A DNA stretch of 64,000 bases from an uncultured Candidatus Saccharibacteria bacterium (GTDB lineage Bacteria; Patescibacteriota; Minisyncoccia; Phycocordibacterales; UBA918): contig CAYGTV010000002.1 of the NCBI GenBank assembly GCA_964353135.1, positions 67,204 through 131,203 of the forward strand. Reading direction: 5' to 3'. Shown here one piece after another: positions 23,440 to 49,683 of this stretch. The notes beneath the pieces were generated by a model. It was not told where the DNA came from and did no database searches. It saw nothing but the letters and a program-made list of their open reading frames with translations. The translations under genes and the position numbers were made by a program. Each line of letters opens with the position of its first letter. Positions within the stretch are counted from its first letter, which is position 1.

Positions 23440-23465
23440 GTTGCTGGAACATTAGATTCAAAAAG

Positions 23466-24812: not shown

Positions 24813-24817
24813 GTTTT

Positions 24818-25471: not shown

Positions 25472-25482
25472 CTAATTAAAAT

Positions 25483-26022: not shown

Positions 26023-26024
26023 TT

Positions 26025-26486: not shown

Positions 26487-26487
26487 C

Positions 26488-26967
26488 ATGAGAGTCCTTG
26501 GGGTTGATCCTGGATATGACCGTGTTGGTCTGGCTGTCATGGAATACGAAAACGGTATCGAGAAGTTACTCTTTTCAATGTGCTTAGAAACTAACAAAGC
26601 AGACCATATACACCTACGCCTCCAACAAGTTGGAGATACGATTACTAAACTAGTTACAGAACACCAGGTTGATACCCTTGGTATCGAAACACTCTTTTTC
26701 AACAAAAACGTTAAGACCGCCATGAGTGTAGCCGAAGCTCGCGGAATCATTATTTATACTGCCCTCCAAGCTGGATGTCAGATTTATGAGTTCAGCCCGC
26801 AGACAATTAAAATCGCCACTACGGGCTATGGCAACAGTGACAAGGTCGCAATGATGACAATGGTAAAACAATTAGTACCCGACGTTCCACCAAACGCCCT
26901 TGACGACGAGTACGATGCAATTGCTGTTGGTATTACCTGCCTTGCACATCACGGAAGAAGCGTATAG
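26488..26967 (+). CDS. ruvC: Crossover junction endodeoxyribonuclease RuvC
   Basis: MRVLGVDPGYDRVGLAVME catalytic N-terminus; 159 aa. Confidence 0.85.
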   Translation: MRVLGVDPGYDRVGLAVMEYENGIEKLLFSMCLETNKADHIHLRLQQVGDTITKLVTEHQVDTLGIETLFFNKNVKTAMSVAEARGIIIYTALQAGCQIYEFSPQTIKIATTGYGNSDKVAMMTMVKQLVPDVPPNALDDEYDAIAVGITCLAHHGRSV

Positions 26968-32417: not shown

Positions 32418-32736
32418 ATTTTTATATTAACTTATTTTACTCTTTATTATTAGTGCTGTGGAGATGTGCAAAAGTCTCATCCGGTGTTGTAATAAAGGCT
32501 GTAATCATGTGGGTAAATTGCGTAGAGCTGTGGGTGGTCCGACAAATGACGGGGAGTACCTGTGTATTACTTTTTGGAAAAATTATAACCTGTTGGTAAG
32601 TCGGGTTATTTGTAGGGGTATTCCCCAGTAATCCCCGATTGTTCTAGGTAGTAATCCTCAGGTTACTCATGGCTGTATACAGGGTTACTCACATTGACTT
32701 GTTTAAAATAATCGCCCTAACGTTAGGGCGATTATT
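32418..32736. promoter_or_regulatory. dnaA-dnaN intergenic region with degenerate DnaA-box-like TGTGG(A/G) motifs and the dnaA terminator hairpin (32706-32738)
   Basis: TGTGGAGAT, TGTGGGTAA, TGTGGGTGG read from the sequence; hairpin ATCGCCCTAACGTTAGGGCGAT. Confidence 0.35.
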
Positions 32737-35032: not shown

Positions 35033-35761
35033 ATGTTTAATTATATTTGGCACACGTTCTTCTTTGACCCAGTGTACAACTCATTAGTTTTTTTTATTGA
35101 TGTTATTCCTGGGGGGGATGTTGGTCTAGCGATTATTGCAACCGTATTTCTAGTAAAAACCATCCTCTTCCCGATCTCAATAAAAGCTGCTCAGACTCAG
35201 CGGATCATGAAAGAAATTGAGCCGCAATTAAAAGAGCTCAAAGAAACCCACAAAGACGACCGTGAAGCTCAAGCCAAAGCCATGATGGAGATCTACCGCG
35301 ATGCGGGGATGAATCCGTTTGCTAGTATCATCCTGATTTTTATCCAAATTCCAGTGGTGATTGCGTTGTATTTTTCTGTCTATAAGGGTGGCGGTATTCC
35401 TCTGCCAGCGATCAACACAGACATTTTATATAGCTTTGTAGCCGAGCCGATCACTATTTCGATGAATTTTCTAGGGATGATCGATATCACACAGCGGAGT
35501 GTGTTACTCGCCATTGCTGCCGCTGTGACACAGTTTTTTGTAGTCAGTGTCACGATGCCAAAACTCCCTCCAAAAGTAGAGGGAGCCGAGCCAAGCATGA
35601 AAGACGATTTTATGCGCAACATGCAGGTACAAATGAAGTACGTCATGCCGATTTTAATCGGAGTAGTGGCCTACACTATTTCAGCTGCAATTGCTCTCTA
35701 CTTCCTTGTGAGCAACATCGTTGCCCTAATTCAAGAAGTGTTTGTTAGGAAGCATCGGTAG
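35033..35761 (+). CDS. yidC: Membrane protein insertase YidC (short, Gram-positive type)
   Basis: 5-TM core; conserved position after rnpA. Confidence 0.8.
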   Translation: MFNYIWHTFFFDPVYNSLVFFIDVIPGGDVGLAIIATVFLVKTILFPISIKAAQTQRIMKEIEPQLKELKETHKDDREAQAKAMMEIYRDAGMNPFASIILIFIQIPVVIALYFSVYKGGGIPLPAINTDILYSFVAEPITISMNFLGMIDITQRSVLLAIAAAVTQFFVVSVTMPKLPPKVEGAEPSMKDDFMRNMQVQMKYVMPILIGVVAYTISAAIALYFLVSNIVALIQEVFVRKHR

Positions 35762-35767
35762 GAAATA

Positions 35768-36700
35768 CTAAGAATTTACAAAACAAGTTACTTGATTTGG
35801 TCCAAAAGCGGTAGTGGTAACATAATTAGCGTTAGCCAGGCAGTTCTCTGTAATTTGTTCACATGTATCTGTTCCGGCTAGGTCGCAGGGAAGTGTTATA
35901 GGTGTTGTTCCAAACCTTGGGTCGTTAGGATCGGCAATAATTTCATCTAATGTCACATACCCAGTTTCGTCAAAATCTGCTGGATAGGTACAAACGTCGC
36001 TCATCCATAAATTTCTTTCCTCTAAAACTCCACCTCGAGAGCCACAAGACACTAAACAATCGCTTCCAGAAAATCCACCTATCCAAGATCCTCGGCTACA
36101 CGTGACCCTTAGACACCCAGCGTCGCTAGCACATATTTCTTCTGCTGCAGTTGGAGCAGGAACACAAACTAAGATCTCAGCTGCAGTTTCATTATTTGTT
36201 TCAGACCTAATAGTTCTACCTTCTTCAGCCCTACAGCCTTGAATAAAAACGGCTACGGCGTCTACGTCATTAGCAGGTATCGTTTGATTATCTGCAACTC
36301 GTGCCAGTATAATATTACCTTGTGCATCTCTTTGTGCCTCAGGTGTTGCAACCTGTGAAATATCCGGATTAAAACTAGTCAACTCAGGATTAATAACAGT
36401 CAAGATAAGAACCGCAGACATAACGATTAGCAAACCAAACAAAGCTCCTTGTATATCTTTTTTAGCCTCCCCCTTTTGGGTGACAATGTCAGTAAACATG
36501 TATTTGAGTCCTGCAATGATGATTTTAACTACCGCTAGTAGTGCAGCAATACTAATGAACATCACGTAGACTGCTTGAATATAAGCGTCAAAACTACCGC
36601 TAGCACCCTGCTCCACTCCAGGAATACCAACTAGAAAATTTTGGGCATAGGTAGTTGCTGGTAGTGTAACCAGTACTACGAGAAGAAAGAAAAATTTCAT
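35768..36700 (-). CDS. Secreted/membrane protein with a VirB2/TrbC pilin-like N-terminus (signal peptide plus two hydrophobic helices) fused to a Cys-rich C-terminal domain
   Basis: MKFFFLLVVLVTLPATTYA signal; helices YIQAVYVMFISIAALLAVVKIIIAGL and ALFGLLIVMSAVLILTVI; 18 Cys in the C-terminal 180 aa. Confidence 0.4.
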   Translation of the reverse strand: MKFFFLLVVLVTLPATTYAQNFLVGIPGVEQGASGSFDAYIQAVYVMFISIAALLAVVKIIIAGLKYMFTDIVTQKGEAKKDIQGALFGLLIVMSAVLILTVINPELTSFNPDISQVATPEAQRDAQGNIILARVADNQTIPANDVDAVAVFIQGCRAEEGRTIRSETNNETAAEILVCVPAPTAAEEICASDAGCLRVTCSRGSWIGGFSGSDCLVSCGSRGGVLEERNLWMSDVCTYPADFDETGYVTLDEIIADPNDPRFGTTPITLPCDLAGTDTCEQITENCLANANYVTTTAFGPNQVTCFVNS

Positions 36701-36706: not shown

Positions 36707-37912
36707 TTAGTTAGAGGTAGTTTCATTGATAATATTTCTGTATACCCAGAGGGTTTCATCAACTTTATTTTGAAAAAAGAAATTTGAGTCATTTTGCCCA
36801 AACTGAGGGTTAGTGAGATCAACTTGACGCCCTGTAGCGTCTTCAGGTGCGATAATAAATCTCCCTAAATCACGAGTAAAACTGTATTCCCACAACAGAT
36901 CGTTGCTTGTACGTGTTCCTCTGTACCAGTCATCGGGTGTATTTGGAGATGGATTGAAAGAGTCTACGCCGCAAATCACCGCTGTAGTATTAGTTTTTCC
37001 AAATGCGCATTTTTCAGGCATGAAAGTCACAGGTGTCTGATTTGGAATAAGTTCACCGACACCAATACTAAATGTGGAGTATGTACTGTCAATTACTTCA
37101 CTGTAGATTATGAACTCATCAGACCCTAATGCCGACAAACCATAGCCAGTGGCATTGAGTCGAGTGACTTGCCCATTAGTGTAAGAGTATACGTATCCCT
37201 CTAGCTCCCTGGTGGTTTTAGGGTATACAATATGCGGCCCAGCATTAGTATGATGCCAAGCAATGGTTGCTTCGACAAACGGCACGGTGAACAAGGTTGA
37301 TATGTCACTTGTGCGAGGGTTGTATTTTTTTACTATCAACTCCCCCACCCCTTCGGTAGCAAACAAAAATTCATTTTCAGCTGTTGCTGTAAAAGACACA
37401 ATTGCTTCGTTTAGTTCAAAGTTACTCAGGCGATCAGTAGTAGTACTAATGGTTCCCAATACAAAACTAGCACGAGGTCCGGTGTCGGATTGCATAAGAA
37501 CATGTTTTCCATCAGGTGTAATTGCAGCGGTAGTAGCAAGAGGGATAGTTGTAGCAGAAATTCGTTCTGATTCTTCGGTAAACAGGTTGATTTCATAGAT
37601 ATGACCAGTTCCTGATTCAACATACCGTACAACTGGATCAGATGTGCTGGCAACTATTATTTCAGCAAAACCTGCCACGGGGGTGGTTGTTAACTGTCGT
37701 AGGCGTTCAATTTGGTCAGATGGTTCTTCAGTTTCTTCTGGAACGGGTTCTTCATCAGGAATAATTACTGTTGGGTCAGTAGAATCACCAAAACCAAAGT
37801 CATTAAATGAAACGTTGTCACTGGTTGTGCCGGTAAATAGAATATATGCCCAGATCCCGATCAAGATCAGTACTATTGCAATTCCTCCGGTAATCAATAG
37901 GGTACGTTTCAT
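36707..37912 (-). CDS. Hypothetical secreted/anchored protein (N-terminal TM, acidic linker, beta-rich domain)
   Basis: Signal-anchor LLITGGIAIVLILIGIWAYILF; no motif recognised; operon with 35768 and 37916 genes. Confidence 0.4.
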   Translation of the reverse strand: MKRTLLITGGIAIVLILIGIWAYILFTGTTSDNVSFNDFGFGDSTDPTVIIPDEEPVPEETEEPSDQIERLRQLTTTPVAGFAEIIVASTSDPVVRYVESGTGHIYEINLFTEESERISATTIPLATTAAITPDGKHVLMQSDTGPRASFVLGTISTTTDRLSNFELNEAIVSFTATAENEFLFATEGVGELIVKKYNPRTSDISTLFTVPFVEATIAWHHTNAGPHIVYPKTTRELEGYVYSYTNGQVTRLNATGYGLSALGSDEFIIYSEVIDSTYSTFSIGVGELIPNQTPVTFMPEKCAFGKTNTTAVICGVDSFNPSPNTPDDWYRGTRTSNDLLWEYSFTRDLGRFIIAPEDATGRQVDLTNPQFGQNDSNFFFQNKVDETLWVYRNIINETTSN

Positions 37913-37915
37913 AGA

Positions 37916-38893
37916 TTAAAAATTCACTACTACACTATCTTCAACACCTTGTAATATCTCTGATAGCGATCGCACATGGAAGTTAAGCACAGTCCGCCCC
38001 CCAATCCCTGCCCGACTAAGCGTTATTTCGTAGGGATTTAAAACACCATTATCGGTTTCAATTTTGTTGATTTCCCACTGGGCTATATCGGGACGATTGA
38101 ACACCCGAGTATCGAGGTTGAATGGTTCAGCTTGGAGTGTTAGCACATTGCCAACTAGTGAGGTATTTGACTGTAGAGGTCGATTTTTTATGCCATAGAG
38201 TGAGTGTTTTTCGTAGAATGCAAGTTCTGGCTGTACGCTAGTCATCCTAACTGCCCGTCTAGCCAAAGTGTTTCCTTGCAGGTCAGCTACGTTTACGATC
38301 AATACCGGCGCAGATCCGCGCGGTGTTTCGAATGACATTTTGTTTCCGCCACGAATTGCCCCGTTTTCTAGGGTTTGTTGATCTACTGTCCATGTATATA
38401 CCAGCTGGTTTGAATTTAGGAAGTTTGTACCATTATGTAGAAGTGCGGTTGCATTGACTTGGCTCGTATAGCTTGGCAGCGCTCGCCCCTCATACCAATC
38501 TGGAACCCGGGTTTGTGGTTCGATGATAATATCGATATAGATTGGATTAATAGTGCGGGTGATGGTCTGTGTCGTACCTTGAGGAGTTTGTAGCGTGGCT
38601 ACGATAGTTGCATTACTCCCAGCTGCCCCGGCTACTAGTTCTGCAGTACGCTGGTTAGAAAAAACCTCGACCACTTCCCCAGCATAGGTCCAGGTAATCT
38701 CTGATCCAAATAAACTACCACTGTAGTCATCGATTGAGGCAGTAAAGGGTTCCCCTGGTCCAGGAAAACTAGGGCTGAGGGTGATTGAAGCTTCGCGGTT
38801 GTTGCTGGTGAGACTTTGGAAATTCCCTACCTGAGCAAGGCTAACAGCTGGAAGGATTGTAAGTAGAAATAGTAAGCAGTAGCGGTACCACAT
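37916..38893 (-). CDS. Hypothetical secreted protein (signal peptide)
   Basis: MWYRYCLLFLLTILPAVSLAQ signal; first gene of a three-gene operon. Confidence 0.4.
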   Translation of the reverse strand: MWYRYCLLFLLTILPAVSLAQVGNFQSLTSNNREASITLSPSFPGPGEPFTASIDDYSGSLFGSEITWTYAGEVVEVFSNQRTAELVAGAAGSNATIVATLQTPQGTTQTITRTINPIYIDIIIEPQTRVPDWYEGRALPSYTSQVNATALLHNGTNFLNSNQLVYTWTVDQQTLENGAIRGGNKMSFETPRGSAPVLIVNVADLQGNTLARRAVRMTSVQPELAFYEKHSLYGIKNRPLQSNTSLVGNVLTLQAEPFNLDTRVFNRPDIAQWEINKIETDNGVLNPYEITLSRAGIGGRTVLNFHVRSLSEILQGVEDSVVVNF

Positions 38894-39142
38894 ATACCAT
38901 ATATAGTAGCAGAAGTGAGGTATACAATAGCCAAGTTATACGTAGTATCCACAATTTATACACAGGTTGTCCGCAGAAATGAGTGGATGAAAGCAGTTGC
39001 TGTTTTTAGCAATATGTGGTATACATGTACCTAGGACTGCTTGCAGTCAAATAGTTTTTCCACAGTGTGTGGTCCCCCACATACAAATTGTAACCTGCGG
39101 CACAGAATATTGTCCGCTATCACCACTAGAAAGGAGCTCCTT

Positions 39143-39451
39143 ATGGAACTCAAAACTATTGCGTTGGCAGCCGCATTCGCTGTCGTTGGTTCGTCGCCTG
39201 TATTGGCTCAGGACATTGTCCTTGCCTCTGTTTCGTCCAGCGATGAAGTAGAAATTTTGCCTGCTGGTCCATCTCCCTGGTGCGCCCAAAATGGTAATGA
39301 TGGTTGCTACCAGACCATGTTCATTGAATCGGGGCCAATTCTCGCAAGTGCTTCAGCCAAGTCTTCCAAAAACTTTGCTGCCGAAAATGGCTACGGCGAT
39401 CTGGAACAAGTGCACGTCGCAGCAATGACCCCTTACTTCTTTAAAGACTGA
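39143..39451 (+). CDS. Small secreted protein (signal peptide, two Cys)
   Basis: SD AAAGGAG before ATG; MELKTIALAAAFAVVGSSPVLAQ signal; terminator at 39470-39500. Confidence 0.45.
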   Translation: MELKTIALAAAFAVVGSSPVLAQDIVLASVSSSDEVEILPAGPSPWCAQNGNDGCYQTMFIESGPILASASAKSSKNFAAENGYGDLEQVHVAAMTPYFFKD

Positions 39452-39504
39452 GTTGATTTCGATCAACAACAAAAGCGACAAGTCCGTTTTACAGCGGGCT
39501 TGTT

Positions 39505-40350
39505 TTAATTTGGGTGTTTCCAAACTAATCTGATCCATGAAAGTATGAATGGATAAATCGGAAAAGCTGAGCCAACTACTGCTAGCAAGAACAACATCTT
39601 TTTTTTCAATCCCTTTTCTCCGCTCAGTGATTTAATCCCGGTTGTGCTATAGATAAACCAAACTAGCATTAATTGTAATACGCCTAATAAAAATACAAAT
39701 GCAAATGGTATGATCATTAGTCTAATTGGGTCGAAAGCAAAACCAAAGAAGTTTTCCGTCGCTATGCTGATTAATCTACTGACTCCAATCGCACCTTCAC
39801 CGACTAACATAATAACCTGCCCAGCTAATGTTATAAACTCTGTGCCTAACGGAATTTCGGCAATGTAGTTATATATGTATAATGTGATTGCTAGTCCTAC
39901 AATACTCATAAGAGCAAATGGTAATTGAATAGCGAAATACCAAAATATTACCCAACTGCCAACCCAGGCATTGATCGCTGTAACTTTAGTTCTGCCAAGC
40001 AGCAGATTTGAATTTTTGGCTTTATGTTCTACTTTTTTACGAACTAGTGGCATTCGACCGGGTTGGTAGTTCGGTTCCTGGTTAGTGTTCGCGTACTCCC
40101 TCTGTACTCGGTTGATCTCGTTTGGTCGGAGGTTGGTGTACCGCTCTGTAGCATCATACTGCTTAGAAAAAGCCTCGTCTGTGGTTTCATGAAAAGGATT
40201 TTGATCAGTATCAGTATTTACAGATTGTCTTTTTCTACGGGGAACTGTATTGCGACGTCTTGCATCACGTCTGATGTTTCCAGGGTTAGAGCCTGCTCCT
40301 GGTGAAGGGGGTATTTGTCTAGTTTCAAGTTGGACGTTAGAGACTTGCAT
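39505..40350 (-). CDS. Hypothetical membrane protein with a disordered basic N-terminus and 4-5 TM helices, adjacent to the T4SS cluster
   Basis: ORF; TM-rich C-terminal half; separated from VirB4 by a terminator. Confidence 0.4.
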   Translation of the reverse strand: MQVSNVQLETRQIPPSPGAGSNPGNIRRDARRRNTVPRRKRQSVNTDTDQNPFHETTDEAFSKQYDATERYTNLRPNEINRVQREYANTNQEPNYQPGRMPLVRKKVEHKAKNSNLLLGRTKVTAINAWVGSWVIFWYFAIQLPFALMSIVGLAITLYIYNYIAEIPLGTEFITLAGQVIMLVGEGAIGVSRLISIATENFFGFAFDPIRLMIIPFAFVFLLGVLQLMLVWFIYSTTGIKSLSGEKGLKKKMLFLLAVVGSAFPIYPFILSWIRLVWKHPN

Positions 40351-40382
40351 TGATTATATTTTACACCACAAGTCATAACAAT

Positions 40383-40415
40383 AAACGGTGGCGAACACTG
40401 CTCGCCACCGTTTAT
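40383..40415. terminator. Terminator AAACGGTGGCGA-ACACTGC-TCGCCACCGTTT
   Basis: 12-bp perfect stem downstream of the VirB4 ATPase gene. Confidence 0.55.
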
Positions 40416-40425
40416 TGTGTCCGTG

Positions 40426-42234
40426 TTACATCCCGGCTGCTTCCAATTCCTCGCGGGCTTTTTTGATTGCCATGAGTTGCGATGGGTCCGAGGTGATGAT
40501 TTGATCCTCGGTGTAGCTGGCGATGATTTTGATGGCGACGTGTTTGAGTCCAGCAAAGAAGATCCCCTCCCCTACGTTTGATTCCAGCAGTAGGAATTTT
40601 TCCTCGTCGGTTAGGTTAAAGGTTTTCTGGATGTTATCGATCGCTGTTGGCGATTGTTTCATCAGTAGCTGGATGCTGGAGTTGGTGATCATCGGGACAC
40701 CGTAAGGTGAGCGCAGGAAGTCATCCACATCCTGAGTGATAGTAGCGATCCCCAGGTAGTACTTTCGACCGCGCTTTGCAAGTGAGAACAAGAACGATGC
40801 AGTGTCTTCGCTTTTCATCATCCACCACGCCTCGTCGATCACCATCAGACGCTTGGCCAGTCGTCTACGGACACTTCCCCAGATAAAGTTGGTGATGATG
40901 TACATGGCGATGGTTTTTAATTCGTCCTCCATGTCACGCAAACTGAACACCACAAATTTTTGGTTGATGTCGACGTTGGTTGGTTGGTTCATGAACCCGG
41001 CCCAGGTTCCACTGGTGTATTTTTGTAGTCTAGCAATCAGTGAGGCACTGCCGTCCATGCCGGCTAGAACCATTTCAAAGTCAGACAGTAGTGGTGGTTC
41101 CATGTCAGAAAAGTCAGCGTCACCAGTGATGTCCTTGAGGGCATAGGTTTCCTGGATTGCGAGGTCGAGGATGGTCTCTTCCTCCGGTGTCAATGCGGTG
41201 TATTCGTTGTTTCCGCCGAGCATGAGCCGAAACAGTCCAATGAGTTCGATGATGTGTGAACGCAGCACGTCGCGGGGATCCTCGTCGCTCGCTGGTGGCG
41301 GGAGGTCAAACGGATTAACGTGGTGGTTGGATGAAAGTGAGATGTTGAAAAACCGACCACCGGTGGCTTCTGCCAAGTACTCGTATTCACGCTCTGGGTC
41401 GAGCACGATCACCTCGGTCCCAAACATTAGTGATCGCAGGATTTCTAGTTTCAGACCGTATGACTTCCCGGCACCAGAGGTCGCAAACGTTACCGAGTTG
41501 TAGTTGGTGAGACTATATCGATCAAACAAAATGAGTGACGAGTTGTGCCGGTTGATACCGTACAAAATCCCAGTGTCCGAAGTGAGGTCGAACGAAGTAA
41601 ACGGAAAGAAGCTCGACAGTGGCGACGAATTGAATTTGCTGTGCACCTGTAGGATGTCATCGTTGAGCGGAAAGACACTTTTAATCCCCTGCTCTTGTTG
41701 GAATAGAGCTGGTTTCATATTGATCAGCCTTGAGTCGAGCATACCCCGGATGTCGTTTTCTACTTTGTTGATGGCAGCTTCGTCTGGACCGTAGATTGAA
41801 ATATAAAACCCAACGTCAAACAGCTTTTCTTCTGACTGTTGTAGTTTGTCTCGGAGTTCTTCGAGGTTACGGTACGATGCCTCGAGCTGTGGATCACGCA
41901 CTTCCCCACGCTCTTGCTTGATACTGATCTGGCTTTGTACCTCGGCTACTTTTTTCTGGAACTTTTTTAAGGAAGCGGCCGTGTCTACTGGGTGAATGAA
42001 AATCGAAACATCGATTTCCTTGGCCAGGTTTAATACTGGTTCAATCCATCCGTCGTTGAGATACCGTGGATAGTTTACCGCGTAGTATGTCCGGGCATTT
42101 ACCCCACTGATGTTGATTGCCCGCGGACTGATTTTGATTGCAGAGGGTGCAATAACATCAGTCAAAGTCATAAGCTGATCTTTGAATGGGTCATCTTTTT
42201 TATTGGGCGGTTGGAGGAAGTCTAAAAAAGCCAT
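40426..42234 (-). CDS. VirB4/TraC-family conjugation-type ATPase, C-terminal (ATPase) part
   Basis: Walker A TSGAGKSYGLK, Walker B MVIDEAWWMM, VirB4 family motifs; 602 aa covers only the C-terminal two-thirds of a typical VirB4. Confidence 0.8.
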   Translation of the reverse strand: MAFLDFLQPPNKKDDPFKDQLMTLTDVIAPSAIKISPRAINISGVNARTYYAVNYPRYLNDGWIEPVLNLAKEIDVSIFIHPVDTAASLKKFQKKVAEVQSQISIKQERGEVRDPQLEASYRNLEELRDKLQQSEEKLFDVGFYISIYGPDEAAINKVENDIRGMLDSRLINMKPALFQQEQGIKSVFPLNDDILQVHSKFNSSPLSSFFPFTSFDLTSDTGILYGINRHNSSLILFDRYSLTNYNSVTFATSGAGKSYGLKLEILRSLMFGTEVIVLDPEREYEYLAEATGGRFFNISLSSNHHVNPFDLPPPASDEDPRDVLRSHIIELIGLFRLMLGGNNEYTALTPEEETILDLAIQETYALKDITGDADFSDMEPPLLSDFEMVLAGMDGSASLIARLQKYTSGTWAGFMNQPTNVDINQKFVVFSLRDMEDELKTIAMYIITNFIWGSVRRRLAKRLMVIDEAWWMMKSEDTASFLFSLAKRGRKYYLGIATITQDVDDFLRSPYGVPMITNSSIQLLMKQSPTAIDNIQKTFNLTDEEKFLLLESNVGEGIFFAGLKHVAIKIIASYTEDQIITSDPSQLMAIKKAREELEAAGM

Positions 42235-42239
42235 ATAAA

Positions 42240-42872
42240 TTATTGTACATTAGGAGCCGCACCGGTTGGATCGCCAGGGTTATATAAATGGTAGTACAAC
42301 TCAACTAGTTCGTCCTTTTGTAGTCTCATGGTTCGAACCCCAACCCCAGCCAGTCCCTGAGTGACCATACCAACTCTCTGTTCTAACTGTAGGCGGTGTT
42401 CTTCGAATTGTTGATCGTTGGTTAGGGCTGCTGTACTACCGCCACTAAATAAACTAGTAACACCCTTTTGCAGGTTTAGTTTGGTAGGTGAATATGGAAT
42501 AACCACAAAGAAGCTCTTGCTCATCACATCAACGTCAGTTGTAAACGAACGAATGAATTCCATGTATTCAGCCAGCTGGATCTTCATTAGGTCGTTGTCC
42601 TGCTTCCCTTCCATACTTGCAAGTAAACCAAGGTATGGTTCGATGTTCAATTTTCTTGATTGTACATAGATTTGTAAACTGAAATCAAGGGTATTTAAAA
42701 AACTTTGGAACTGTTGCAGGATGGCTTTTTGTTCATCGAGTGATTTGAGGGCAAAGTTAACTGATGAAGCCAGCAGCACCATGAGCATTTCTCCATCACG
42801 CTTAATAACCACACCATCTTTGATGTCGCGGATTGGAACAAAACGTTGAGTGGCTGCTTTTTGGTTTGGCAT
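42240..42872 (-). CDS. VirB4-family N-terminal domain encoded as a separate ORF
   Basis: FVPIRDIKDGVVIKRDGEMLMVL...SLDEQKAILQQFQSFLNTL matches the N-terminal region of VirB4/TraC-like ATPases; stop codon 5 nt before the ATPase ORF start, in a different frame. Confidence 0.6.
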   Translation of the reverse strand: MPNQKAATQRFVPIRDIKDGVVIKRDGEMLMVLLASSVNFALKSLDEQKAILQQFQSFLNTLDFSLQIYVQSRKLNIEPYLGLLASMEGKQDNDLMKIQLAEYMEFIRSFTTDVDVMSKSFFVVIPYSPTKLNLQKGVTSLFSGGSTAALTNDQQFEEHRLQLEQRVGMVTQGLAGVGVRTMRLQKDELVELYYHLYNPGDPTGAAPNVQ

Positions 42873-42873: not shown

Positions 42874-43299
42874 CTATTCTGGTTTTTGCATAGCTTGTAA
42901 TTCGAGTTTTCTGGTCAGTGAGGTGATGCTCTTGTGTGATGAACCGCGGTTGCTAGGAGTTACAGCATACGATGAGGTTGGTTCTGATTTTATTTTGGTC
43001 TCATCTTTGTACACAACGTCAGCTTTTTGATGCCAGAGGTATAGTTTGTCATTGGTGACGTAGTTGTACACGGCCTCCAAGAAGTAAGAAAATGGTCGGT
43101 TGTTGACTGGGAAAAAGGCCAGTGCGGCAGCCAAGAGAGCAATCGGTAGTCCTAGTAGTACAAATACAATGAACGGAAATATGAAAAACATTACAACCGC
43201 TGCACCCACGCCACCACCGAGGTACACAAATTGCCGCCAGGTCAGTGGTCCAAAGATCTTGTCCTCGATTTCAATAAATTGTGGTACTTCAAACCGCAT
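42874..43299 (-). CDS. PrgI-family (VirB3-like) small membrane protein of Gram-positive-type T4SS
   Basis: N-terminus MRFEVPQFIEIEDKIFGPLTWRQFVYL, characteristic of PrgI-family proteins; two TM helices. Confidence 0.7.
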   Translation of the reverse strand: MRFEVPQFIEIEDKIFGPLTWRQFVYLGGGVGAAVVMFFIFPFIVFVLLGLPIALLAAALAFFPVNNRPFSYFLEAVYNYVTNDKLYLWHQKADVVYKDETKIKSEPTSSYAVTPSNRGSSHKSITSLTRKLELQAMQKPE

Positions 43300-43447: not shown

Positions 43448-44017
43448 CTATTTTTCAGGAGTGCCCCACTGGGCAGTGGTGTTTTTCTCAGCGTTTCCTT
43501 GACCATTGAGAATGGTCTCTTGGCTGGCAGCCTGGTGCACCGGTTCTTCTTCGGTACGGATAGTTTCCATATCGTGAGCCATTGTTCGGATTGGTTGGAG
43601 TTGCTTGAATGCTGCTTCGGTTTCAGCTAACTCAGCCGCAAGGGTGTCCTGACTGTCAGTGGATACTTTTGTCATCTCAGCAGGCTGAGGTTGTGTAGTA
43701 ATTGGTACTGGGGTGTTTGTTGGTTGATTGAGCGGAGCGAGGAAATCAAGCACATCTGCTGTGATTCTCATAGCGTCTGGTTGCGATATCTGGAGACGTT
43801 CTACAAATAGTTCTGGAAGTTTTTCCTGCGGAACCAGCCCAAGAATAACGTCGCCAACGGCAACTAAAAAATGCAAATGTCTATCTTGATCCGATATACC
43901 ATGTCGCTGGGAAATAGTATACAAAGCTTGGCCGTTTTCTGATCCTTCGTATAGCGATCGCTGCTTGGCAGTTGCTGTGTTGTAGGCATCTTCACGTTGT
44001 TCGTCGGTGAAATTCAT
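43448..44017 (-). CDS. Hypothetical protein in the T4SS cluster
   Basis: ORF co-oriented and tightly spaced with the VirB6-like gene; no motif. Confidence 0.35.
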   Translation of the reverse strand: MNFTDEQREDAYNTATAKQRSLYEGSENGQALYTISQRHGISDQDRHLHFLVAVGDVILGLVPQEKLPELFVERLQISQPDAMRITADVLDFLAPLNQPTNTPVPITTQPQPAEMTKVSTDSQDTLAAELAETEAAFKQLQPIRTMAHDMETIRTEEEPVHQAASQETILNGQGNAEKNTTAQWGTPEK

Positions 44018-44022
44018 AAATT

Positions 44023-46440
44023 TTATTCGTTGAAGAAATCCTCCTTGGCTTTTTTAGAAGTTATGTAAGCTGCCATCCGTGGATCGTTTTGTTTGTAGAA
44101 CTTTATTGCTCCTGCTAGGTCCGTTCGTTCATCTGCAGTCATTTCACTCTTGCCTTGGTTCGCTGCACGAGCAATCGCCTTCATCATATCCACTGTCATA
44201 TTGTTACCAACCTCGGTGAGTGTCCCTGTTTTACGGTCAAAGAACGTCTCAAGTGGTAGTTTACCAATTGTTTCGGTGTTGGATTTAATATATTTTTCAC
44301 GTTGTTTTTTGAGAACGTCACCAGTAAGTGGTGTAGCAGCTGTGGTTGTCCCGTCAAATTTATTCTTTGCATCCTTATTTTGAATGTCAACCCGGCCCTT
44401 ACTGATGATATTTTCAATTCCCTTTGAACGTGTTGCAGATATTTTATCGTATTGTTCAATGCTGATTTTACCTGAGTCTTTGAGTGTCTCTAGTTGTTTT
44501 TCTGATAATTGTGAAGCAATAGCCTCAGTATTGAGTCTCTCAAATGAGAAGTTGCTCAACTCTTCGTTAGATAATCTGCTAACCATTTTAGCAAGACCTT
44601 CCATAGCATCTGCTAGCTCCTCAGCTTCTGACCCGACGTCGTTGAGTACCTTCTCAAACCCAGCAAAGCGCGCAGTTTCTCGACCCGCCCCCATGTCTTT
44701 CTTTTGTTGTCGAGTGAAGTCCCCAGTCTCTCCAAGAGCTTTGATTTGCTCAGCTGATAGTTTGCCAAGTATTTCAGGTGAGTTGCGGACATTTTCGCTT
44801 AGGCGCCGCAACTCTGCCGTTGACATTTTACCAACCACACCGCCAATTTTAGTGTTAGCTTCGTCAATTTTTTTACGTACGTCACGCCGTTCGTCTGGAG
44901 TCAAGGTATTACCAGGAGCTAGCTTTGCTTCTTCCTCTTTTAGTTTCTTGCGCTCTTCTCTAAGAGTTTTTTCTCGATCAAATTCATCGCCGTTTTGGTT
45001 AAATGAGTTGTTTTGTCTTGCGATTCGTTCTCGTTGTTGATCAATAGTTTCAGAACCTAAAACGCTGGCACGGGTACCTCTATCAAGTCCTGCTCCAACA
45101 GTACTATCAAGTCCACGAGCAGCTGCACGCCCAATCGCGCCCTTATTACCAGCCCAAGCAGTGACACGATTGAGTTGACGACGGCTGACTTCGCTACCTT
45201 CATTGATACCACGAGCCATATAACCACCGGCTCCCCGGCCAACTCCCCGAGCAGCGTAACTACCGACAGCACCATAGGCAGCGAGTGGACGTCGTACAGC
45301 CCCGCGCACTCGAGAGTTAACACCATTGCTTACTTTTGCCATCACTCCACTACCATCTGAGGCAAGTTTTCCTGCAACTTGTACTGCAGCAATAAGGAAA
45401 CCAGCAGAAAGAATAAACGGTCCAAGCCCTCCGGCAAAGTTCGCAGCAATTTCTGACACAGTTCCTGTTGGGTTAAATACGTCGCTATTTTGCTGTGTTA
45501 GGTTTCCTAGTCCTCCCCCCTGGGCCGAACCACCTGCCCCAACTCCGTCACCAAAGAAGTTATCAAGTATTGATGCTGCAAAAAATATCATAATGATATA
45601 TACCGGTGCGTAGAATGATTGTTTTAGAAACCCTGACCAGTATTTGTCACTCATGTTTTTGAAGCCTGGGAATATCCAACCTAGGAACATAAAAGGCGAA
45701 AGCACCATGTATACCGATAGCGCAATAAAGCGAATGATAAGCATAATTCCACCAACACCAAACGCAAAAGCACCGATGATGTTAATGATTCCAATACCAA
45801 ATATATACGACCACGGAGCTGCCCCGTCACCGTCTAAACCAGGTGCGTTTTCTCCACTAAAGTTAATCGTTGAAATACCCATTAACCGGAAGAATGTATC
45901 GCCAACTCGGACAGATGTTGGGTTGCCATCAAGGTCATCGCCAATTGTGTCAAAACCAGCAACAGCAATTTCCGAGGCAAGGATGTTGGTGAAATCAACT
46001 ACAAATTTAGTGATAAACAAACTAAAGTTGATTAGAAGAGCGGCGATTATTAGTGAGACGAGCGTCTTTTTGGTTTGAGAATCATCACTGTTGAGGATCA
46101 TCTTGAAGCCAATGTACACGAGACCAAAAATAAACAAGATATTGAATAGGTCTCTAACCAGTACCCAAAGTTGGTCAACCGCAAGTCCGACTCCACCAGA
46201 GTTGTAAATTGAACCAAAATTGATTACAAACGTGTTGATCCCGTAGTCCAGTAGTGAACCTCCAACCCAAAGTAGCCACCCAGTTAAGTTTGAGATTACA
46301 AAGAAGAGAATTCCTTCGATTGTATCCTGGGCAAAAGCCACCTGTGGGAACAAAGCCAACATAGCTACTCCAAACAAACTCAGGATAGTTATCCATAGTG
46401 TTAGTTTGTTTTCGAGTAGGAAATGCTTCATAAGTATCAA
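44023..46440 (-). CDS. VirB6/TrbL-like polytopic membrane protein with a Gly-rich linker and long C-terminal coiled-coil extension
   Basis: Signal/TM then 6+ TM helices; C-terminal about 400 aa hydrophilic, K/E-rich repeats. Confidence 0.55.
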   Translation of the reverse strand: MILMKHFLLENKLTLWITILSLFGVAMLALFPQVAFAQDTIEGILFFVISNLTGWLLWVGGSLLDYGINTFVINFGSIYNSGGVGLAVDQLWVLVRDLFNILFIFGLVYIGFKMILNSDDSQTKKTLVSLIIAALLINFSLFITKFVVDFTNILASEIAVAGFDTIGDDLDGNPTSVRVGDTFFRLMGISTINFSGENAPGLDGDGAAPWSYIFGIGIINIIGAFAFGVGGIMLIIRFIALSVYMVLSPFMFLGWIFPGFKNMSDKYWSGFLKQSFYAPVYIIMIFFAASILDNFFGDGVGAGGSAQGGGLGNLTQQNSDVFNPTGTVSEIAANFAGGLGPFILSAGFLIAAVQVAGKLASDGSGVMAKVSNGVNSRVRGAVRRPLAAYGAVGSYAARGVGRGAGGYMARGINEGSEVSRRQLNRVTAWAGNKGAIGRAAARGLDSTVGAGLDRGTRASVLGSETIDQQRERIARQNNSFNQNGDEFDREKTLREERKKLKEEEAKLAPGNTLTPDERRDVRKKIDEANTKIGGVVGKMSTAELRRLSENVRNSPEILGKLSAEQIKALGETGDFTRQQKKDMGAGRETARFAGFEKVLNDVGSEAEELADAMEGLAKMVSRLSNEELSNFSFERLNTEAIASQLSEKQLETLKDSGKISIEQYDKISATRSKGIENIISKGRVDIQNKDAKNKFDGTTTAATPLTGDVLKKQREKYIKSNTETIGKLPLETFFDRKTGTLTEVGNNMTVDMMKAIARAANQGKSEMTADERTDLAGAIKFYKQNDPRMAAYITSKKAKEDFFNE

Positions 46441-46448
46441 TCGTTTCT

Positions 46449-47909
46449 TTAGTTGGTTTGAGTACTGCTGGTTGCTGTGGTTGTGCTTAGTCTATCTAGA
46501 ACGGCATTTAAGCCTCTACTGTCAACAGGATCAATACCAATAAGACTCATTTGTTCTCTCCACTCGTTTAGGTTTCGACTTTTTCGTCCATCGTCAGTGA
46601 TATCAAGGTTAGAGTACTCGATAAATATTGCAATTTGGCGATCAGATGTTGCACTGTCGTATTCAGTTAGCAGACTTGTAAGTGCAGTGATGTTGTCGTT
46701 ACTAATAAATATTTCATTAGCAATTTCTTCATTTAGTATAGCTGCTACGTCTCGTGCCCCTTGAGGATTTTCATCGTCTAGTATGAACTCTGTAAGTAGA
46801 TCAAGTAATAGCTGACTCTCTAATCGATAATTTCTTTCAGAGCGTAATGCGTCAGAAAGATTGTCTCTCGCAGTCCCAGTGATGTTGCCTGATCCATCAA
46901 TACTTTCCTGATACAGAGCGTCAAGGTATGAACCATCATAACCGCCGTAACTCTGTCCGGTGTTACCAGATAGCCCAAGTAGCCCAGCTGCTCCGGAAAT
47001 AGCCTGGTTTGCAAGTGCACCTAACAGTTCCCCAATGTATTCGTTGACTTCATCCGCTTCCACTAAAACGTCTTGTCCAGCGCCTAGAACTTTGTTTAGT
47101 TGGCCAGCAATTGTTACGCCTGGAGTAGTGATTGTGCAGTTTTCTTCGTTTGTACCTTCGATGAGTTCACACACTGATTGAGACAGGAAACCTCCGCCAA
47201 ATTCCAGTAGCTGTAGCTCCTCCCCCTGGGCATTGATGAGTCGGGCTCGCCCAGCTGCTTGTGCGCTGAGTACTGCACCATAGGGTGTGTACGTTTGGGG
47301 TGTGGCGGTGATAGTCAGCCAGTCAGCCAGCCCTCGCCCTGGATCAGTACCATCGATGAATCCTTGGATGTTATCGATCACCCCGCTGAGGGTACAGGTT
47401 GGCGCGGATTGTTCTCCGTCTCTTCCCTGTTGGTATTGCACAGCGACTGCAATTTGAACATCTAGCCGGAACGGCGCACAAATAAAGGATCCGACGTCAC
47501 CCAATTCACTGATGAATTGTCCAAATTCTTGGTCTGCCACGTCTGTGAGGAACCCTCGTAGATCAGTCACAAATGCTGGTCGTCCTTGGAAGCCGGAGTT
47601 TACCCAGTTTAAAAATTCGTTTGCCATCATACTGATCGCACGTTTAGCCAAAGACCACGCAATTCCGTCTAGACTGATACTCTTACCCCAACCAAGAGTT
47701 TCTGTTGCAGCCGATATAGTTTCTTGGGCGGTTGACCAAAAGTTCTGCAAGGTATTTCTTGGGTCAAATACAACACTACCACTGGCTGCCGCTTCGACAG
47801 TCTCTACCTGACTAGTTGGTGCTTGTGGCACATAAACCATCACAAAGGCAAACACAACAAAAATTGTGCCAACTAGTAATTTTTTTAAAGCTAGAAAAAG
47901 AGTATCCAT
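46449..47909 (-). CDS. Hypothetical secreted protein (signal peptide) in the T4SS cluster
   Basis: N-terminal hydrophobic signal FVVFAFVMVYVP; 4-nt spacing to neighbours. Confidence 0.4.
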   Translation of the reverse strand: MDTLFLALKKLLVGTIFVVFAFVMVYVPQAPTSQVETVEAAASGSVVFDPRNTLQNFWSTAQETISAATETLGWGKSISLDGIAWSLAKRAISMMANEFLNWVNSGFQGRPAFVTDLRGFLTDVADQEFGQFISELGDVGSFICAPFRLDVQIAVAVQYQQGRDGEQSAPTCTLSGVIDNIQGFIDGTDPGRGLADWLTITATPQTYTPYGAVLSAQAAGRARLINAQGEELQLLEFGGGFLSQSVCELIEGTNEENCTITTPGVTIAGQLNKVLGAGQDVLVEADEVNEYIGELLGALANQAISGAAGLLGLSGNTGQSYGGYDGSYLDALYQESIDGSGNITGTARDNLSDALRSERNYRLESQLLLDLLTEFILDDENPQGARDVAAILNEEIANEIFISNDNITALTSLLTEYDSATSDRQIAIFIEYSNLDITDDGRKSRNLNEWREQMSLIGIDPVDSRGLNAVLDRLSTTTATSSTQTN

Positions 47910-47913
47910 ATTA

Positions 47914-48804
47914 TTAAGAATTAAATTCTGGGCTAAAGATTATGAATGATAAAGCTGGATCATTTGGGCCAACAAGCGATGCGTATGGTTCCAGGATCAA
48001 GTACATATTTTCTAGCGCAATTCGTAGTCCTAGTGCATCGTCTTGGTAGCGTTTGATGCGCACAAGCGCGAGGGCTGGGTCTTCGGCTGCGATCACCATT
48101 GCTCCAATGCTCTCGTGTAGGGCGTTAAAGGTATTAATTAGATCAAGGTGTTGCTTTACAGCAATCGCAGGAACAGGAACAGTTAATGCAATATCGCGCA
48201 TGTTTTTGTATGCTTCAGAAATGTTATTAAGCTCGTCAATGTATGACTGATCTGGGGTTATATCTTTGAGAGCGTCAGATAGAATATCGATCTCCCCTCG
48301 ACCGTTATTAATATTGTTATTGGTGATAGTCAGGGCAATAGTATTGGCGTAATCGAGTATGTCTGCGTCCTCCCATTGTGTTAGTACAGTAATATCTGGC
48401 ACATCATATAAATCATATGCTGCCTGGCTGGTCATGGTATCTATAGCGCGACCGACCACTTCTTCTTGGGTTCGTCCAAAAGGTCCAGCGGTTTTTGACC
48501 TAACTAGATCCTCGATAAAATCAATTCCAAGCTGACCAGTAAGTGTGTCTGGTAGCTCATAGTCTGTGTCTACTTGATCAAGAATGATTGGGGCTGTAGT
48601 AACAAACTCGTCCCGCCAGTCCTCGATACCATTGCGGTCTTCATCGAGAACCTCGATTGCGACCCGGGGCTGTGCCACAACCACCGCAGCTGGTTGACTT
48701 TGAAAATTCGATACACCAAAGTTGCTTAGTACGTAGGCACCAGCAACCAGTGCAAATCCAACTAAACAAGCGCCGATAACGCGCGGATTAAAATTCCGTT
48801 CCAT
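47914..48804 (-). CDS. Bitopic membrane protein, first gene of the T4SS cluster (possible VirB8-like scaffold)
   Basis: Short cytoplasmic N-terminus, one TM (VIGACLVGFALVAGAYVL), about 260-aa ectodomain. Confidence 0.3.
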   Translation of the reverse strand: MERNFNPRVIGACLVGFALVAGAYVLSNFGVSNFQSQPAAVVVAQPRVAIEVLDEDRNGIEDWRDEFVTTAPIILDQVDTDYELPDTLTGQLGIDFIEDLVRSKTAGPFGRTQEEVVGRAIDTMTSQAAYDLYDVPDITVLTQWEDADILDYANTIALTITNNNINNGRGEIDILSDALKDITPDQSYIDELNNISEAYKNMRDIALTVPVPAIAVKQHLDLINTFNALHESIGAMVIAAEDPALALVRIKRYQDDALGLRIALENMYLILEPYASLVGPNDPALSFIIFSPEFNS

Positions 48805-48882: not shown

Positions 48883-49683
48883 CTATTTTCTCTGTAAAAG
48901 TCTAATCAGATCAATAAAATTAGTAATAGAGAGGTCCTCTGCCCTACTCTCTGCAACTAATCCTAATGTTGTGAGTGAATGACCCACAGATTCTTTTTGA
49001 AATAATTTTGCCAGGTTGCCTGCCAGTTGTTTGCGTTTTTGTCCAAAACCAGCGTGTACCACATCAAAAAAAACATCGTCAGATATACCGTGCAGCCTAG
49101 AACGATTGATGTTATAGATTGCGACAATGGCTGAGTCGACTGCCGGTGGCGGCGTAAAGTGTCCGCGTTTAATAGTATCAATGTATGCAGGTTCACCAAA
49201 GACTTTGACTGACAGTGAGAGGATGGATTCTTTTGGATCTCTTGCAATCCGCTCGGCCACCTCTTTTTGAATCAAAAAGACCAGGGTGTTTGGCTGGATG
49301 TCAGACTCCAGGCACTGACGAAATAGAAGCCCAGAAATATAATATGGAATGTTGGCCACTACTTTAAAGGCTTGATCAACTAAGCCAAACATAGCCATGT
49401 CGAGTTTCCGCGCATCATGATGATGTATGACTAGTTGCCCGTTTGTGATTTCGTTTACAAATGTTTCTTTGAGTGAATCGATTGCCCGCAGGTCGGCTTC
49501 GACGGCGATTACGTTGCATCCTCGCTTCAGAATTTCCGCCGTTAGGATCCCGGTCCCTGGCCCGATTTCAAGCACAGTCTCTCCAACCGCTAGGTTAGCA
49601 GCGTCACACATTTTTTTAGGCACAAAGTCACTGTTCAGAAAGTGTTGCCCGAGGGACTTTTTGTGTTCAAACTTTTCTTTCAC
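48883..49683 (-). CDS. rsmA: 16S rRNA (adenine1518/1519-N6)-dimethyltransferase RsmA/KsgA
   Basis: SAM motif LEIGPGTGILT; KsgA family length and pattern. Confidence 0.85.
   Translation of the reverse strand: MKEKFEHKKSLGQHFLNSDFVPKKMCDAANLAVGETVLEIGPGTGILTAEILKRGCNVIAVEADLRAIDSLKETFVNEITNGQLVIHHHDARKLDMAMFGLVDQAFKVVANIPYYISGLLFRQCLESDIQPNTLVFLIQKEVAERIARDPKESILSLSVKVFGEPAYIDTIKRGHFTPPPAVDSAIVAIYNINRSRLHGISDDVFFDVVHAGFGQKRKQLAGNLAKLFQKESVGHSLTTLGLVAESRAEDLSITNFIDLIRLLQRK

What the first reader, a model, noticed from the sequence alone, without database searches (positions are those of the whole stretch)
40426..42872. VirB4 ATPase split into two adjacent ORFs (N-terminal domain 210 aa, ATPase 602 aa) separated by 5 nt and a frame change
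The 210-aa ORF matches the membrane-associated N-terminal region of VirB4/TraC ATPases. The downstream ORF starts (MAFLDFLQ...) within what is normally the middle of VirB4. Together they total 812 aa, a typical VirB4 length. The junction mRNA reads GTACAATAATTTATATGGC: stop TAA, 5 nt, then ATG. This could be a natural two-gene arrangement, a recent pseudogenising mutation, a sequencing indel, or programmed recoding.
Basis: seen in the sequence. Interest (0 to 1): 0.5.

Follow-up and report, generated by a model that had tools for sequence, protein, structure and literature searches.

The report
Two-gene VirB4 (TrsD plus ATPase)

Summary
On the minus strand, a 210-aa ORF (42240-42872) ends in TAA, and 5 nt later, in another frame, a 602-aa VirB4 ATPase ORF (40426-42234) begins. 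The two are colinear with full-length VirB4 proteins.

It is not a pseudogene, an indel or a recoding site.
- All 120 best homologues of each ORF have the same short lengths.
- 149 of the 150 best representatives in a 50%-clustered library are stand-alone proteins no longer than 443 aa.
- All 80 species-level genomes examined carry the same stop-then-start arrangement.
- In those genomes the gap varies from 1 to 497 nt, the junction sequences are not conserved, and all three frame relations occur.

The small protein is the Patescibacteria counterpart of TrsD of staphylococcal pGO1/pSK41 (Pfam PF26593 "TraC-like"). Quinonero-Coronel et al. 2025 (PMC12102498) reported it as a remote homologue of the VirB4 N-terminus, the most abundant T4SS component in Patescibacteria, and usually adjacent to virB4. 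The gene neighbourhood (PrgI/VirB3, VirB6-like, VirB2-like pilin, dnaA, ksgA) matches that paper.

Two minor refinements: the break lies inside the canonical VirB4 N-terminal domain, at about the same point as in pSK41 TrsD/TrsE, and a rare fused relative exists. Verdict: already known, low interest.

The parts
42874..43299 (-). PrgI/VirB3-like small membrane protein (141 aa). Its stop codon lies 1 nt before the ORF1 ATG.
   Evidence: Pfam PF12666 PrgI at 8e-11, 42.8 bits against a cutoff of 27. Hydrophobic hairpin at residues 23-67. Stop and start read TAG-T-ATG.
42240..42872 (-). TrsD-like protein (210 aa), corresponding to the first half of the VirB4 N-terminal domain and encoded as a separate gene (Pfam PF26593 'TraC-like').
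   Evidence: NCBIfam VirB4_plasma positions 100-259 of 894 at 2.5e-10, CD1110 positions 4-102 of 752, and TrsD/TraD positions 24-144 of 201 at 1.4e-3. PF26593 is precomputed for the identical protein. AF2 model has pLDDT 85, and its 14 best PDB matches are all TrwK/VirB4 of R388. hhalign against pSK41 TrsD gives E 7e-5. There are 2,770 homologues, and the best 120 are all 208-221 aa.
42235..42239 (-). 5-nt intergenic spacer (TTTAT) between the ORF1 stop TAA and the ORF2 ATG.
   Evidence: In 80 relatives the spacer is 1-19 nt in 64 and 45-497 nt in 16, and it is not conserved in sequence.
40426..42234 (-). VirB4 ATPase lacking the first ~200 residues (602 aa). It comprises the second half of the N-terminal domain (about residues 1-216) plus the P-loop C-terminal domain (about 217-602), with Walker A GAGKS and Walker B-like VIDEAWW.
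   Evidence: NCBIfam CD1110 at 348 bits against a cutoff of 325, model positions 182-733 of 752. Pfam P-loop_TraG, AAA_10 and DUF87. PDB 4AG5 VirB4 C-terminal domain at 3e-38 to residues 217-582. The 120 best homologues are 571-605 aa at 85% identity or more.
40378..40418 (-). Perfect 19-bp stem with a 3-nt loop directly after the ORF2 stop. Probably a transcription terminator or stabiliser ending the virB4 unit.
   Evidence: RNA fold gives -30.9 kcal/mol, z = -6.2, and 0 of 200 shuffles fold as well. It is followed by promoter-like hexamers TTGTTA-17-TATAAT at 40381-40353. Its function is inferred.
44023..46440 (-). VirB6/TrbL-like polytopic membrane protein (805 aa) of the same cluster.
   Evidence: Pfam TrbL at 2.2e-4, 21.5 bits, below the cutoff of 25.9. 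Multiple hydrophobic segments in residues 12-361. The same gene sits upstream in the Logan contig L082.
43448..44017 (-). 189-aa protein of unknown family lying between the VirB6-like and PrgI-like genes.
   Evidence: No Pfam hit. Called as a gene in L082.
35768..36700 (-). VirB2-like T4SS pilin-domain protein (310 aa) at the edge of the cluster nearest dnaA.
   Evidence: Pfam PF18895 T4SS_pilin at 3.8e-6, 27.3 bits against a cutoff of 26.6.

Best explanation
This is the normal, functional gene pair of the Patescibacteria (CPR) type IV secretion system. A TrsD-like gene encodes the first ~200 residues of what is a single VirB4 polypeptide in most other systems. Directly after it comes a virB4 gene encoding the remainder: the second half of the N-terminal domain plus the P-loop ATPase domain. 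The genes lie in one tightly packed operon, prgI/virB3-like, then 1 nt, then trsD-like, then 5 nt, then virB4, and are presumably translated as two polypeptides by termination and re-initiation coupling.

Inferred, not shown: the TrsD-like protein binds the shortened VirB4 non-covalently and rebuilds a complete VirB4 N-terminal domain. That domain then docks on the membrane through the PrgI/VirB3-like protein, and the assembled ATPase energises the T4SS.

The fission is old. It is shared across Paceibacteria and their relatives and lies at about the same position as the TrsD/TrsE boundary of staphylococcal plasmids pGO1/pSK41, which belong to the MPF-FATA class. My confidence that this is a natural conserved two-gene arrangement is about 0.97. 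My confidence in non-covalent reconstitution of a VirB4-like unit is about 0.7.
For: Conservation:
- The best 120 ORF1 homologues are all 208-221 aa, down to 71% identity.
- The best 120 ORF2 homologues are all 571-605 aa.
- In the 50%-clustered library there are 2,197 hits. Of the best 150, 149 are stand-alone proteins no longer than 443 aa and one (P0269, 797 aa) is fused.
- In 80 of 80 GTDB species genomes found with the ATPase as probe, so without presupposing ORF1, a TrsD-like ORF ends in a stop upstream of virB4. Gaps are 1-497 nt and frame offsets are 34/25/21.

Colinearity:
- NCBIfam full-length models are covered in order by ORF1 and then ORF2.
- The fused relative P0269 aligns to ORF1 over its residues 1-210 and to ORF2 over the rest. 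It sits in the same PrgI...yidC-rnpA-dnaA context.

Fold:
- The ORF1 model has pLDDT 85.
- Its only significant PDB matches are TrwK/VirB4 chains of the R388 T4SS, with E from 9e-5 to 9e-3 and TM about 0.56. The next hit has E = 0.2.

Precedent:
- pSK41 has trsC, trsD (227 aa), a 14-nt gap, then trsE (672 aa).
- The ORF1 family profile against TrsD gives hhalign E 7e-5.
- ORF2 52-570 aligns to TrsE 62-617 at E 2e-35, so both ATPases start at about the same point.

Literature (PMC12102498):
- TrsD shares remote homology with the VirB4 N-terminus.
- There are 2,272 homologues in Patescibacteria, 1,664 of them next to virB4.
- The homologue is essential in Ca. Southlakia epibionticum.
- virB4 lies near dnaA and ksgA, as it does in this window.
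Against: No direct evidence shows that the two polypeptides associate, because no co-folding or interaction test could be run. The hhalign probability against pSK41 TrsD is only 62%, and the NCBIfam TrsD score (18.5 bits) is far below its curated cutoff of 200. The link to staphylococcal TrsD is therefore remote homology plus synteny, not family membership. ORF1 evolves faster than ORF2: 71-75% against 85% identity at rank 120 of the two hit lists. Some relatives add long disordered C-terminal tails. The paper also notes TrsD genes that are not adjacent to virB4 in Gracilibacteria. Each of these would fit some function beyond simply completing VirB4.
Confidence: 0.85

Rival explanations
1. Recent pseudogenisation: a frameshift or nonsense mutation has broken a once-intact virB4 in this genome.
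For: A stop followed by a frame change in the middle of a VirB4-length reading region. A fused 797-aa relative exists.
Against: The same split occurs in 80 of 80 species-level relatives and in hundreds of database proteins from 97% down to about 35% identity. Protein lengths are preserved, columns are invariant, and each ORF2 has a proper ATG start (MG.../MA...). Both halves are under obvious purifying selection.
Confidence: 0.01
2. Sequencing or assembly indel: the real gene is continuous and the split is an artefact.
For: The source is a metagenome-assembled genome, and homopolymer-rich A/T sequence surrounds the junction.
Against: An independent Logan assembly of run ERR3534985 gives the identical 5,339 bp. 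Relatives from many studies and assemblers all have the split, with different spacers. A single indel could not fuse the frames in any case: the ORF2 frame has its own stop (TAA, 42250-42252) 15 nt upstream of its ATG.
Confidence: 0.01
3. Programmed recoding (ribosomal frameshift or stop bypass) produces a full-length VirB4 from the two ORFs.
For: The ORFs are adjacent, in different frames, and only 5 nt apart.
Against: A shift would have to occur in the 7 nt between the ORF2-frame stop and the ORF1 stop (TGTACAA), where there is no X XXY YYZ slippery motif. Across 80 relatives all three frame relations occur (34/25/21), 25 of them being in-frame with a stop. Gaps reach 497 nt and the junction sequences are unrelated. 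Recoding sites are conserved; this junction is not.
Confidence: 0.01
4. The TrsD-like protein is a diverged, independently acting T4SS accessory factor, for example an assembly or adaptor subunit. It would be derived from the VirB4 N-terminus but would not simply complete the VirB4 fold.
For: ORF1 diverges faster than ORF2. Homologues exist with 150-230-aa disordered Pro/Ala/Thr-rich tails or N-terminal extensions. [quoted passage not shown]
Against: There is strict adjacency and tight spacing in 64 of 80 genomes. A fused relative is colinear with both halves. ORF2 lacks the first ~200 residues that full-length VirB4 models include. The ORF1 fold matches VirB4 and nothing else in the PDB.
Confidence: 0.12

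Closest known systems
TrsD + VirB4 gene pair of the Patescibacteria T4SS (Quinonero-Coronel et al. 2025, Microb Genom, PMC12102498). The essential T4SS of Ca. Southlakia epibionticum is as cited there.
   Same: A small TrsD-like protein remotely homologous to the VirB4 N-terminus is encoded next to virB4. PrgI/VirB3, VirB6-like and VirB2-like pilin genes lie nearby. The locus is chromosomal, close to dnaA and ksgA, and I saw no relaxase. All of these are found in the window.
   Different: Nothing substantive. The paper does not spell out that the adjacent VirB4 is correspondingly shortened, where the break lies, or that rare fused forms exist.
TrsD/TraD + TrsE/TraE of staphylococcal conjugative plasmids pGO1/pSK41 (MPF-FATA class, pGO1 subclass; NCBIfam NF041427)
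   Same: The gene order is the same: small membrane protein (trsC / PrgI-like), then a ~210-227-aa TrsD, a short gap, then an N-terminally short VirB4 of 602-672 aa. The ATPases start at about the same alignment position. Profile similarity of ORF1 to TrsD gives E 7e-5.
   Different: Homology is very remote: 19% identity, and 18.5 bits against a family cutoff of 200. pSK41 is a conjugative plasmid with a relaxase and a coupling protein in the operon. Here the system is chromosomal, next to the replication origin, with no relaxase seen.
Single-chain VirB4/TraC/PrgJ/CD1110 ATPases (e.g. TrwK of R388, PDB 7O41/8RTD; T. pseudethanolicus VirB4 CTD, 4AG5)
   Same: ORF1 plus ORF2 together cover the whole length in order. 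The ORF1 model matches TrwK, and ORF2 217-582 matches the 4AG5 C-terminal domain.
   Different: Those proteins are one polypeptide of ~750-900 aa. Here the first ~200 residues are a separate gene product.

Membership tests
VirB4 family T4SS ATPase (ORF2) | Score above the curated cutoff of a VirB4 family model | tested here: met
   NCBIfam NF045971 CD1110 family at 348.4 bits against a cutoff of 325. Pfam P-loop_TraG at 88.7 bits against 25.8.
VirB4 family T4SS ATPase (ORF2) | Walker A and Walker B nucleotide-binding motifs in the C-terminal domain | tested here: met
   GAGKS (ATSGAGKSYG) and hydrophobic-DE (LMVIDEAWW) are present and invariant in alignment A2. The C-terminal domain aligns to 4AG5 at 3e-38.
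VirB4 family T4SS ATPase (ORF2) | Complete N-terminal domain within the same polypeptide | tested here: not met
   ORF2 starts at model position 182 of 752 (CD1110), 283 of 894 (VirB4_plasma) and about 196 of 792 (VirB4_CagE). The missing part is ORF1.
TrsD/TraD family (NCBIfam NF041427) / Pfam PF26593 TraC-like (ORF1) | Score above the curated NCBIfam TrsD cutoff | tested here: not met
   18.5 bits against a cutoff of 200, E 1.4e-3. ORF1 is a remote homologue, not a member of the staphylococcal subfamily.
TrsD/TraD family (NCBIfam NF041427) / Pfam PF26593 TraC-like (ORF1) | Match to Pfam PF26593 | tested here: inconclusive
   PF26593 (TraC-like) is the precomputed domain of the 100%-identical protein P0001 and of all 120 listed homologues. 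My own hmmscan against the local Pfam copy returned nothing, presumably because that copy lacks the model.
TrsD/TraD family (NCBIfam NF041427) / Pfam PF26593 TraC-like (ORF1) | Stand-alone ~200-aa protein homologous to the VirB4 N-terminus and encoded directly upstream of an N-terminally short VirB4 | tested here: met
Patescibacteria-clade T4SS (MPF-FATA-related) | PrgI/VirB3, TrsD, VirB4, VirB6 and VirB2-like pilin genes clustered | tested here: met
   PrgI at 42.8 bits against 27. T4SS_pilin at 27.3 bits against 26.6. The VirB6/TrbL match is only sub-threshold (21.5 bits against 25.9), though the protein is polytopic.
Patescibacteria-clade T4SS (MPF-FATA-related) | Chromosomal location near dnaA/dnaN/ksgA, with no relaxase in the cluster | tested here: met
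   dnaA at 32737-34122, dnaN at 31323-32417, yidC at 35033-35761 and ksgA at 48883-49683. No relaxase domain was found in any of the 27 ORFs scanned. Not every ORF was scanned.
Patescibacteria-clade T4SS (MPF-FATA-related) | VirB4 falls in the monophyletic Patescibacteria clade of the VirB4 tree | not tested
   No phylogeny was built. All 80 best genome hits are Patescibacteria MAGs at 67-90% identity.
Programmed ribosomal frameshift / recoding site | Slippery sequence in the overlap, and a frame relation and junction conserved among relatives | tested here: not met
   The overlap window is 7 nt (TGTACAA) with no slippery heptamer. Frame offsets are 34/25/21, gaps are 1-497 nt and junctions are unrelated.
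Pseudogene | The disruption is lineage-specific and intact orthologues exist in close relatives | tested here: not met
   80 of 80 relatives are split. The protein lengths of both halves are conserved.

The most novel reading that the evidence does not exclude
The break inside the VirB4 N-terminal domain is a single ancient fission shared by the pGO1/pSK41 subclass of Gram-positive conjugation systems and the whole Patescibacteria T4SS clade, with occasional secondary re-fusion such as P0269. On this reading the free TrsD subunit is not just a passive half-domain. It would be an exchangeable assembly or regulatory module, consistent with its faster evolution, the tail-bearing variants and the unlinked copies in Gracilibacteria. 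It would give these essential, non-conjugative T4SSs a different stoichiometry or control from canonical VirB4 machines.
Probability: 0.25. Interest if true: 0.35.

Novelty: already known. Interest (0 to 1): 0.1.

Why it matters
It matters little as a discovery. The arrangement is published (PMC12102498), has a Pfam family (PF26593) and has a plasmid precedent (TrsD/TrsE).

Its practical value is for annotation. Split virB4 in CPR genomes should not be flagged as a pseudogene, frameshift or assembly error. The ~210-aa "hypothetical protein" upstream of virB4 should be named as the TrsD-like N-terminal piece of VirB4.

A modest open point remains. No function has been shown for TrsD in any system, although its homologue is reported as essential in a cultivated Saccharibacterium. 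Whether it simply completes the VirB4 N-terminal domain is therefore still worth a biochemical test.

Tried and rejected
I used the ATPase alignment A2 instead, which also avoids presupposing ORF1.
- A sequence search of the PDB with ORF1 gave only a chance LolA hit at E 0.42. The link to VirB4 needed the predicted fold.
- The local Pfam scan of ORF1 gave no family, although PF26593 is precomputed for the identical protein.
- I planned to predict a fused ORF1+ORF2 chain to test docking. I abandoned this, so the association of the two proteins remains an inference.
- The main text of Guglielmini et al. 2014 (PMC4027160) does not name TrsD. The homology statement is cited from the 2025 paper only.
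- The consensus terminator scan did not report the hairpin after ORF2. A direct fold did show it.
- Pseudogene, indel and recoding readings were considered and rejected, as set out under the rival explanations.
Full report
**Observation.** The finding is real and sits at the stated coordinates. On the minus strand, ORF1 runs 42872->42240 (210 aa) and ends with TAA. Five bases (TTTAT) follow, and ORF2 starts with ATG at 42234 and runs to 40426 (602 aa). The two starts are 638 nt apart, so the frames differ. A Logan assembly of run ERR3534985 is identical to the window over 5,339 bp, junction included.

**What the two ORFs are.** ORF2 is a VirB4-type ATPase. It scores 348 bits against the NCBIfam CD1110 VirB4 family (cutoff 325), matching model positions 182-733 of 752. 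It also hits Pfam P-loop_TraG, AAA_10 and DUF87, and residues 217-582 align to the crystallised VirB4 C-terminal domain 4AG5 at 3e-38.

ORF1 matches only the N-terminal parts of full-length VirB4 models: VirB4_plasma positions 100-259 of 894 at 2.5e-10, and CD1110 positions 4-102 of 752. It also matches, weakly, the TrsD/TraD family. An AlphaFold2 model of ORF1 built on 37 homologues is confident (pLDDT 85). Its only significant matches in the PDB are 14 chains of TrwK/VirB4 from the R388 T4SS, with E from 9e-5 to 9e-3 and TM about 0.56; the next hit has E = 0.2.

The two ORFs are therefore colinear pieces of one VirB4.
- ORF2 retains about 215 residues ahead of the C-terminal domain, so the break lies inside the canonical N-terminal domain.
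- ORF1 has no hydrophobic segment. Any membrane attachment would go through the PrgI/VirB3-like protein, which has a hydrophobic hairpin at residues 23-67 and whose stop codon lies 1 nt before the ORF1 ATG.

**Is the split an accident?** No.
- ORF1 has 2,770 database homologues. The best 120, down to 71% identity, are all 208-221 aa and come from Paceibacteria, Kaiserbacteria, Nomurabacteria and Parcubacteria.
- The best 120 ORF2 homologues, at 85% identity or more, are all 571-605 aa.
- In a library clustered at 50% identity, ORF1 has 2,197 hits. Of the best 150, 149 are stand-alone proteins no longer than 443 aa, and one (P0269, 797 aa) is a fused VirB4.
- I probed one genome per GTDB species with the ATPase, so as not to presuppose ORF1. 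In 80 of 80 loci (67-90% identity) a TrsD-like ORF ends in a stop codon upstream of virB4.
- In those loci the spacer is 1-19 nt in 64 and 45-497 nt in 16. The junction sequences are unrelated, and the frame relations are 34, 25 and 21 for the three possibilities.

This rules out a recent mutation and an assembly indel. It also rules out programmed recoding, which would need a conserved frame relation and a slippery site. In this window the ORF2 frame has its own stop 15 nt upstream of the ATG, leaving only TGTACAA as a possible shift window.

**Relation to fused forms and to plasmids.** The fused relative P0269 aligns to ORF1 over its residues 1-210 and to ORF2 over the rest at 53% identity. 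The window's break falls in a poorly conserved linker. P0269 lies in the same context: PrgI upstream, with yidC, rnpA and dnaA nearby.

Staphylococcal plasmid pSK41 has the same order: trsC, trsD (227 aa), a 14-nt gap, then trsE (672 aa). The ORF1 family profile aligns to pSK41 TrsD end to end (E 7e-5, probability 62%). ORF2 52-570 aligns to TrsE 62-617 (E 2e-35), so the two ATPases begin at about the same position.

**Literature.** Quinonero-Coronel et al. 2025 (PMC12102498) describe exactly this. [quoted passage not shown] They counted 2,272 homologues, 1,664 of them next to virB4, and the homologue is listed as essential in Ca. Southlakia epibionticum. They report the system as related to the MPF-FATA class, usually without a relaxase, and located near dnaA, dnaN, ksgA and rnpA.

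The window fits point by point:
- VirB2-like pilin protein at 35768-36700
- VirB6-like protein at 44023-46440
- PrgI-like protein at 42874-43299
- dnaA at 32737-34122, dnaN at 31323-32417, yidC at 35033-35761 and ksgA at 48883-49683

Pfam already holds a family for ORF1 (PF26593, TraC-like).

**Mechanism.**
- Shown: two conserved genes, tightly packed in one operon, whose products together cover a VirB4.
- Inferred: they are translated separately, probably coupled. The TrsD-like protein then binds the shortened VirB4 to complete its N-terminal domain, which docks on PrgI/VirB3 at the membrane as the VirB4 N-terminal domain does in R388. I could not test the interaction, because the fused-chain prediction was abandoned after a bad alignment.
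- A 19-bp perfect hairpin (-30.9 kcal/mol, z = -6.2) directly follows the ORF2 stop. Promoter-like hexamers come after it, which suggests that virB4 ends a transcription unit. This is also inferred.

**Verdict.** The arrangement is already known and widespread, so interest is low. What this work adds is small: the position of the break inside the N-terminal domain, its correspondence with the pSK41 TrsD/TrsE boundary, quantified junction variability, and a rare fused relative.

Noticed in passing
window 31323-34122 and 35033-35761: dnaN (31323-32417, -), dnaA (32737-34122, -) and yidC (35033-35761, +) lie within ~2-8 kb of the T4SS cluster, so the window spans the chromosomal replication-origin region. 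This matches the published origin-proximal location of Patescibacteria T4SS. GC skew in 2-kb bins is noisy and shows no clean switch.
   Followed up: partly
window 40353-40418 (minus strand): A perfect 19-bp stem with a 3-nt loop (-30.9 kcal/mol) lies right after the virB4 stop. The promoter-like hexamers TTGTTA-17-TATAAT at 40381-40353 overlap its 3' end by 4 nt and run downstream, ahead of the next gene (39505-40350, 281 aa, hydrophobic C-terminal half). The consensus terminator scan missed the hairpin because its T-run lies inside the stem.
   Followed up: partly
L083:544-2937 (GCA_964615945.1, CAZTUR010000004.1), protein P0269: A rare fused TrsD-VirB4 (797 aa, one ORF with no internal stop) in a Patescibacteria MAG, in the same PrgI...yidC-rnpA-dnaA context. 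Whether it is ancestral or a secondary re-fusion was not determined.
   Followed up: partly
proteins P0250, P0287, P0303 (not in the window): Some TrsD-like homologues carry 150-230-aa low-complexity Pro/Ala/Thr/Gln-rich C-terminal tails. Others (P0291, P0329, P0370) have N-terminal extensions of ~95-150 aa. The window's ORF1 has neither.
   Followed up: no
window 40426-42872: The ATPase half is much more conserved than the TrsD-like half in broadly the same group of genomes: 85% against 71-75% identity at rank 120 of the hit lists.
   Followed up: no
window 36707-40350 and 43448-48804 (minus strand): Several ORFs in or beside the T4SS cluster have no significant Pfam match: 401 aa (36707-37912), 325 aa (37916-38893; only a sub-threshold DUF5839 hit, E 1.3e-3), 281 aa (39505-40350), 189 aa (43448-44017), 486 aa (46449-47909) and 296 aa (47914-48804). 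They are candidates for lineage-specific T4SS components.
   Followed up: no
window 1279-2970 (minus strand): A 563-aa protein has AAA_21/AAA_15 and OLD-like TOPRIM domains, an OLD-family nuclease that looks defence-related. It lies in the lowest-GC part of the window (0.37 against ~0.44).
   Followed up: no
window 21706-26967 (plus strand): A PilB/GspE-type T2SS/T4P ATPase (21706-23439, T2SSE at 1e-107) is followed by a run of same-strand ORFs (23823-26967). This may be a type IV pilus cluster ~15 kb from the T4SS.
   Followed up: no
loci L002, L006, L011, L014 and many others: Many genome records whose VirB4 is 67-86% identical to this Paceibacteria-type protein are titled 'uncultured Candidatus Saccharibacteria bacterium'. 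These deposited names look like generic or wrong labels rather than true Saccharimonadia.
   Followed up: no
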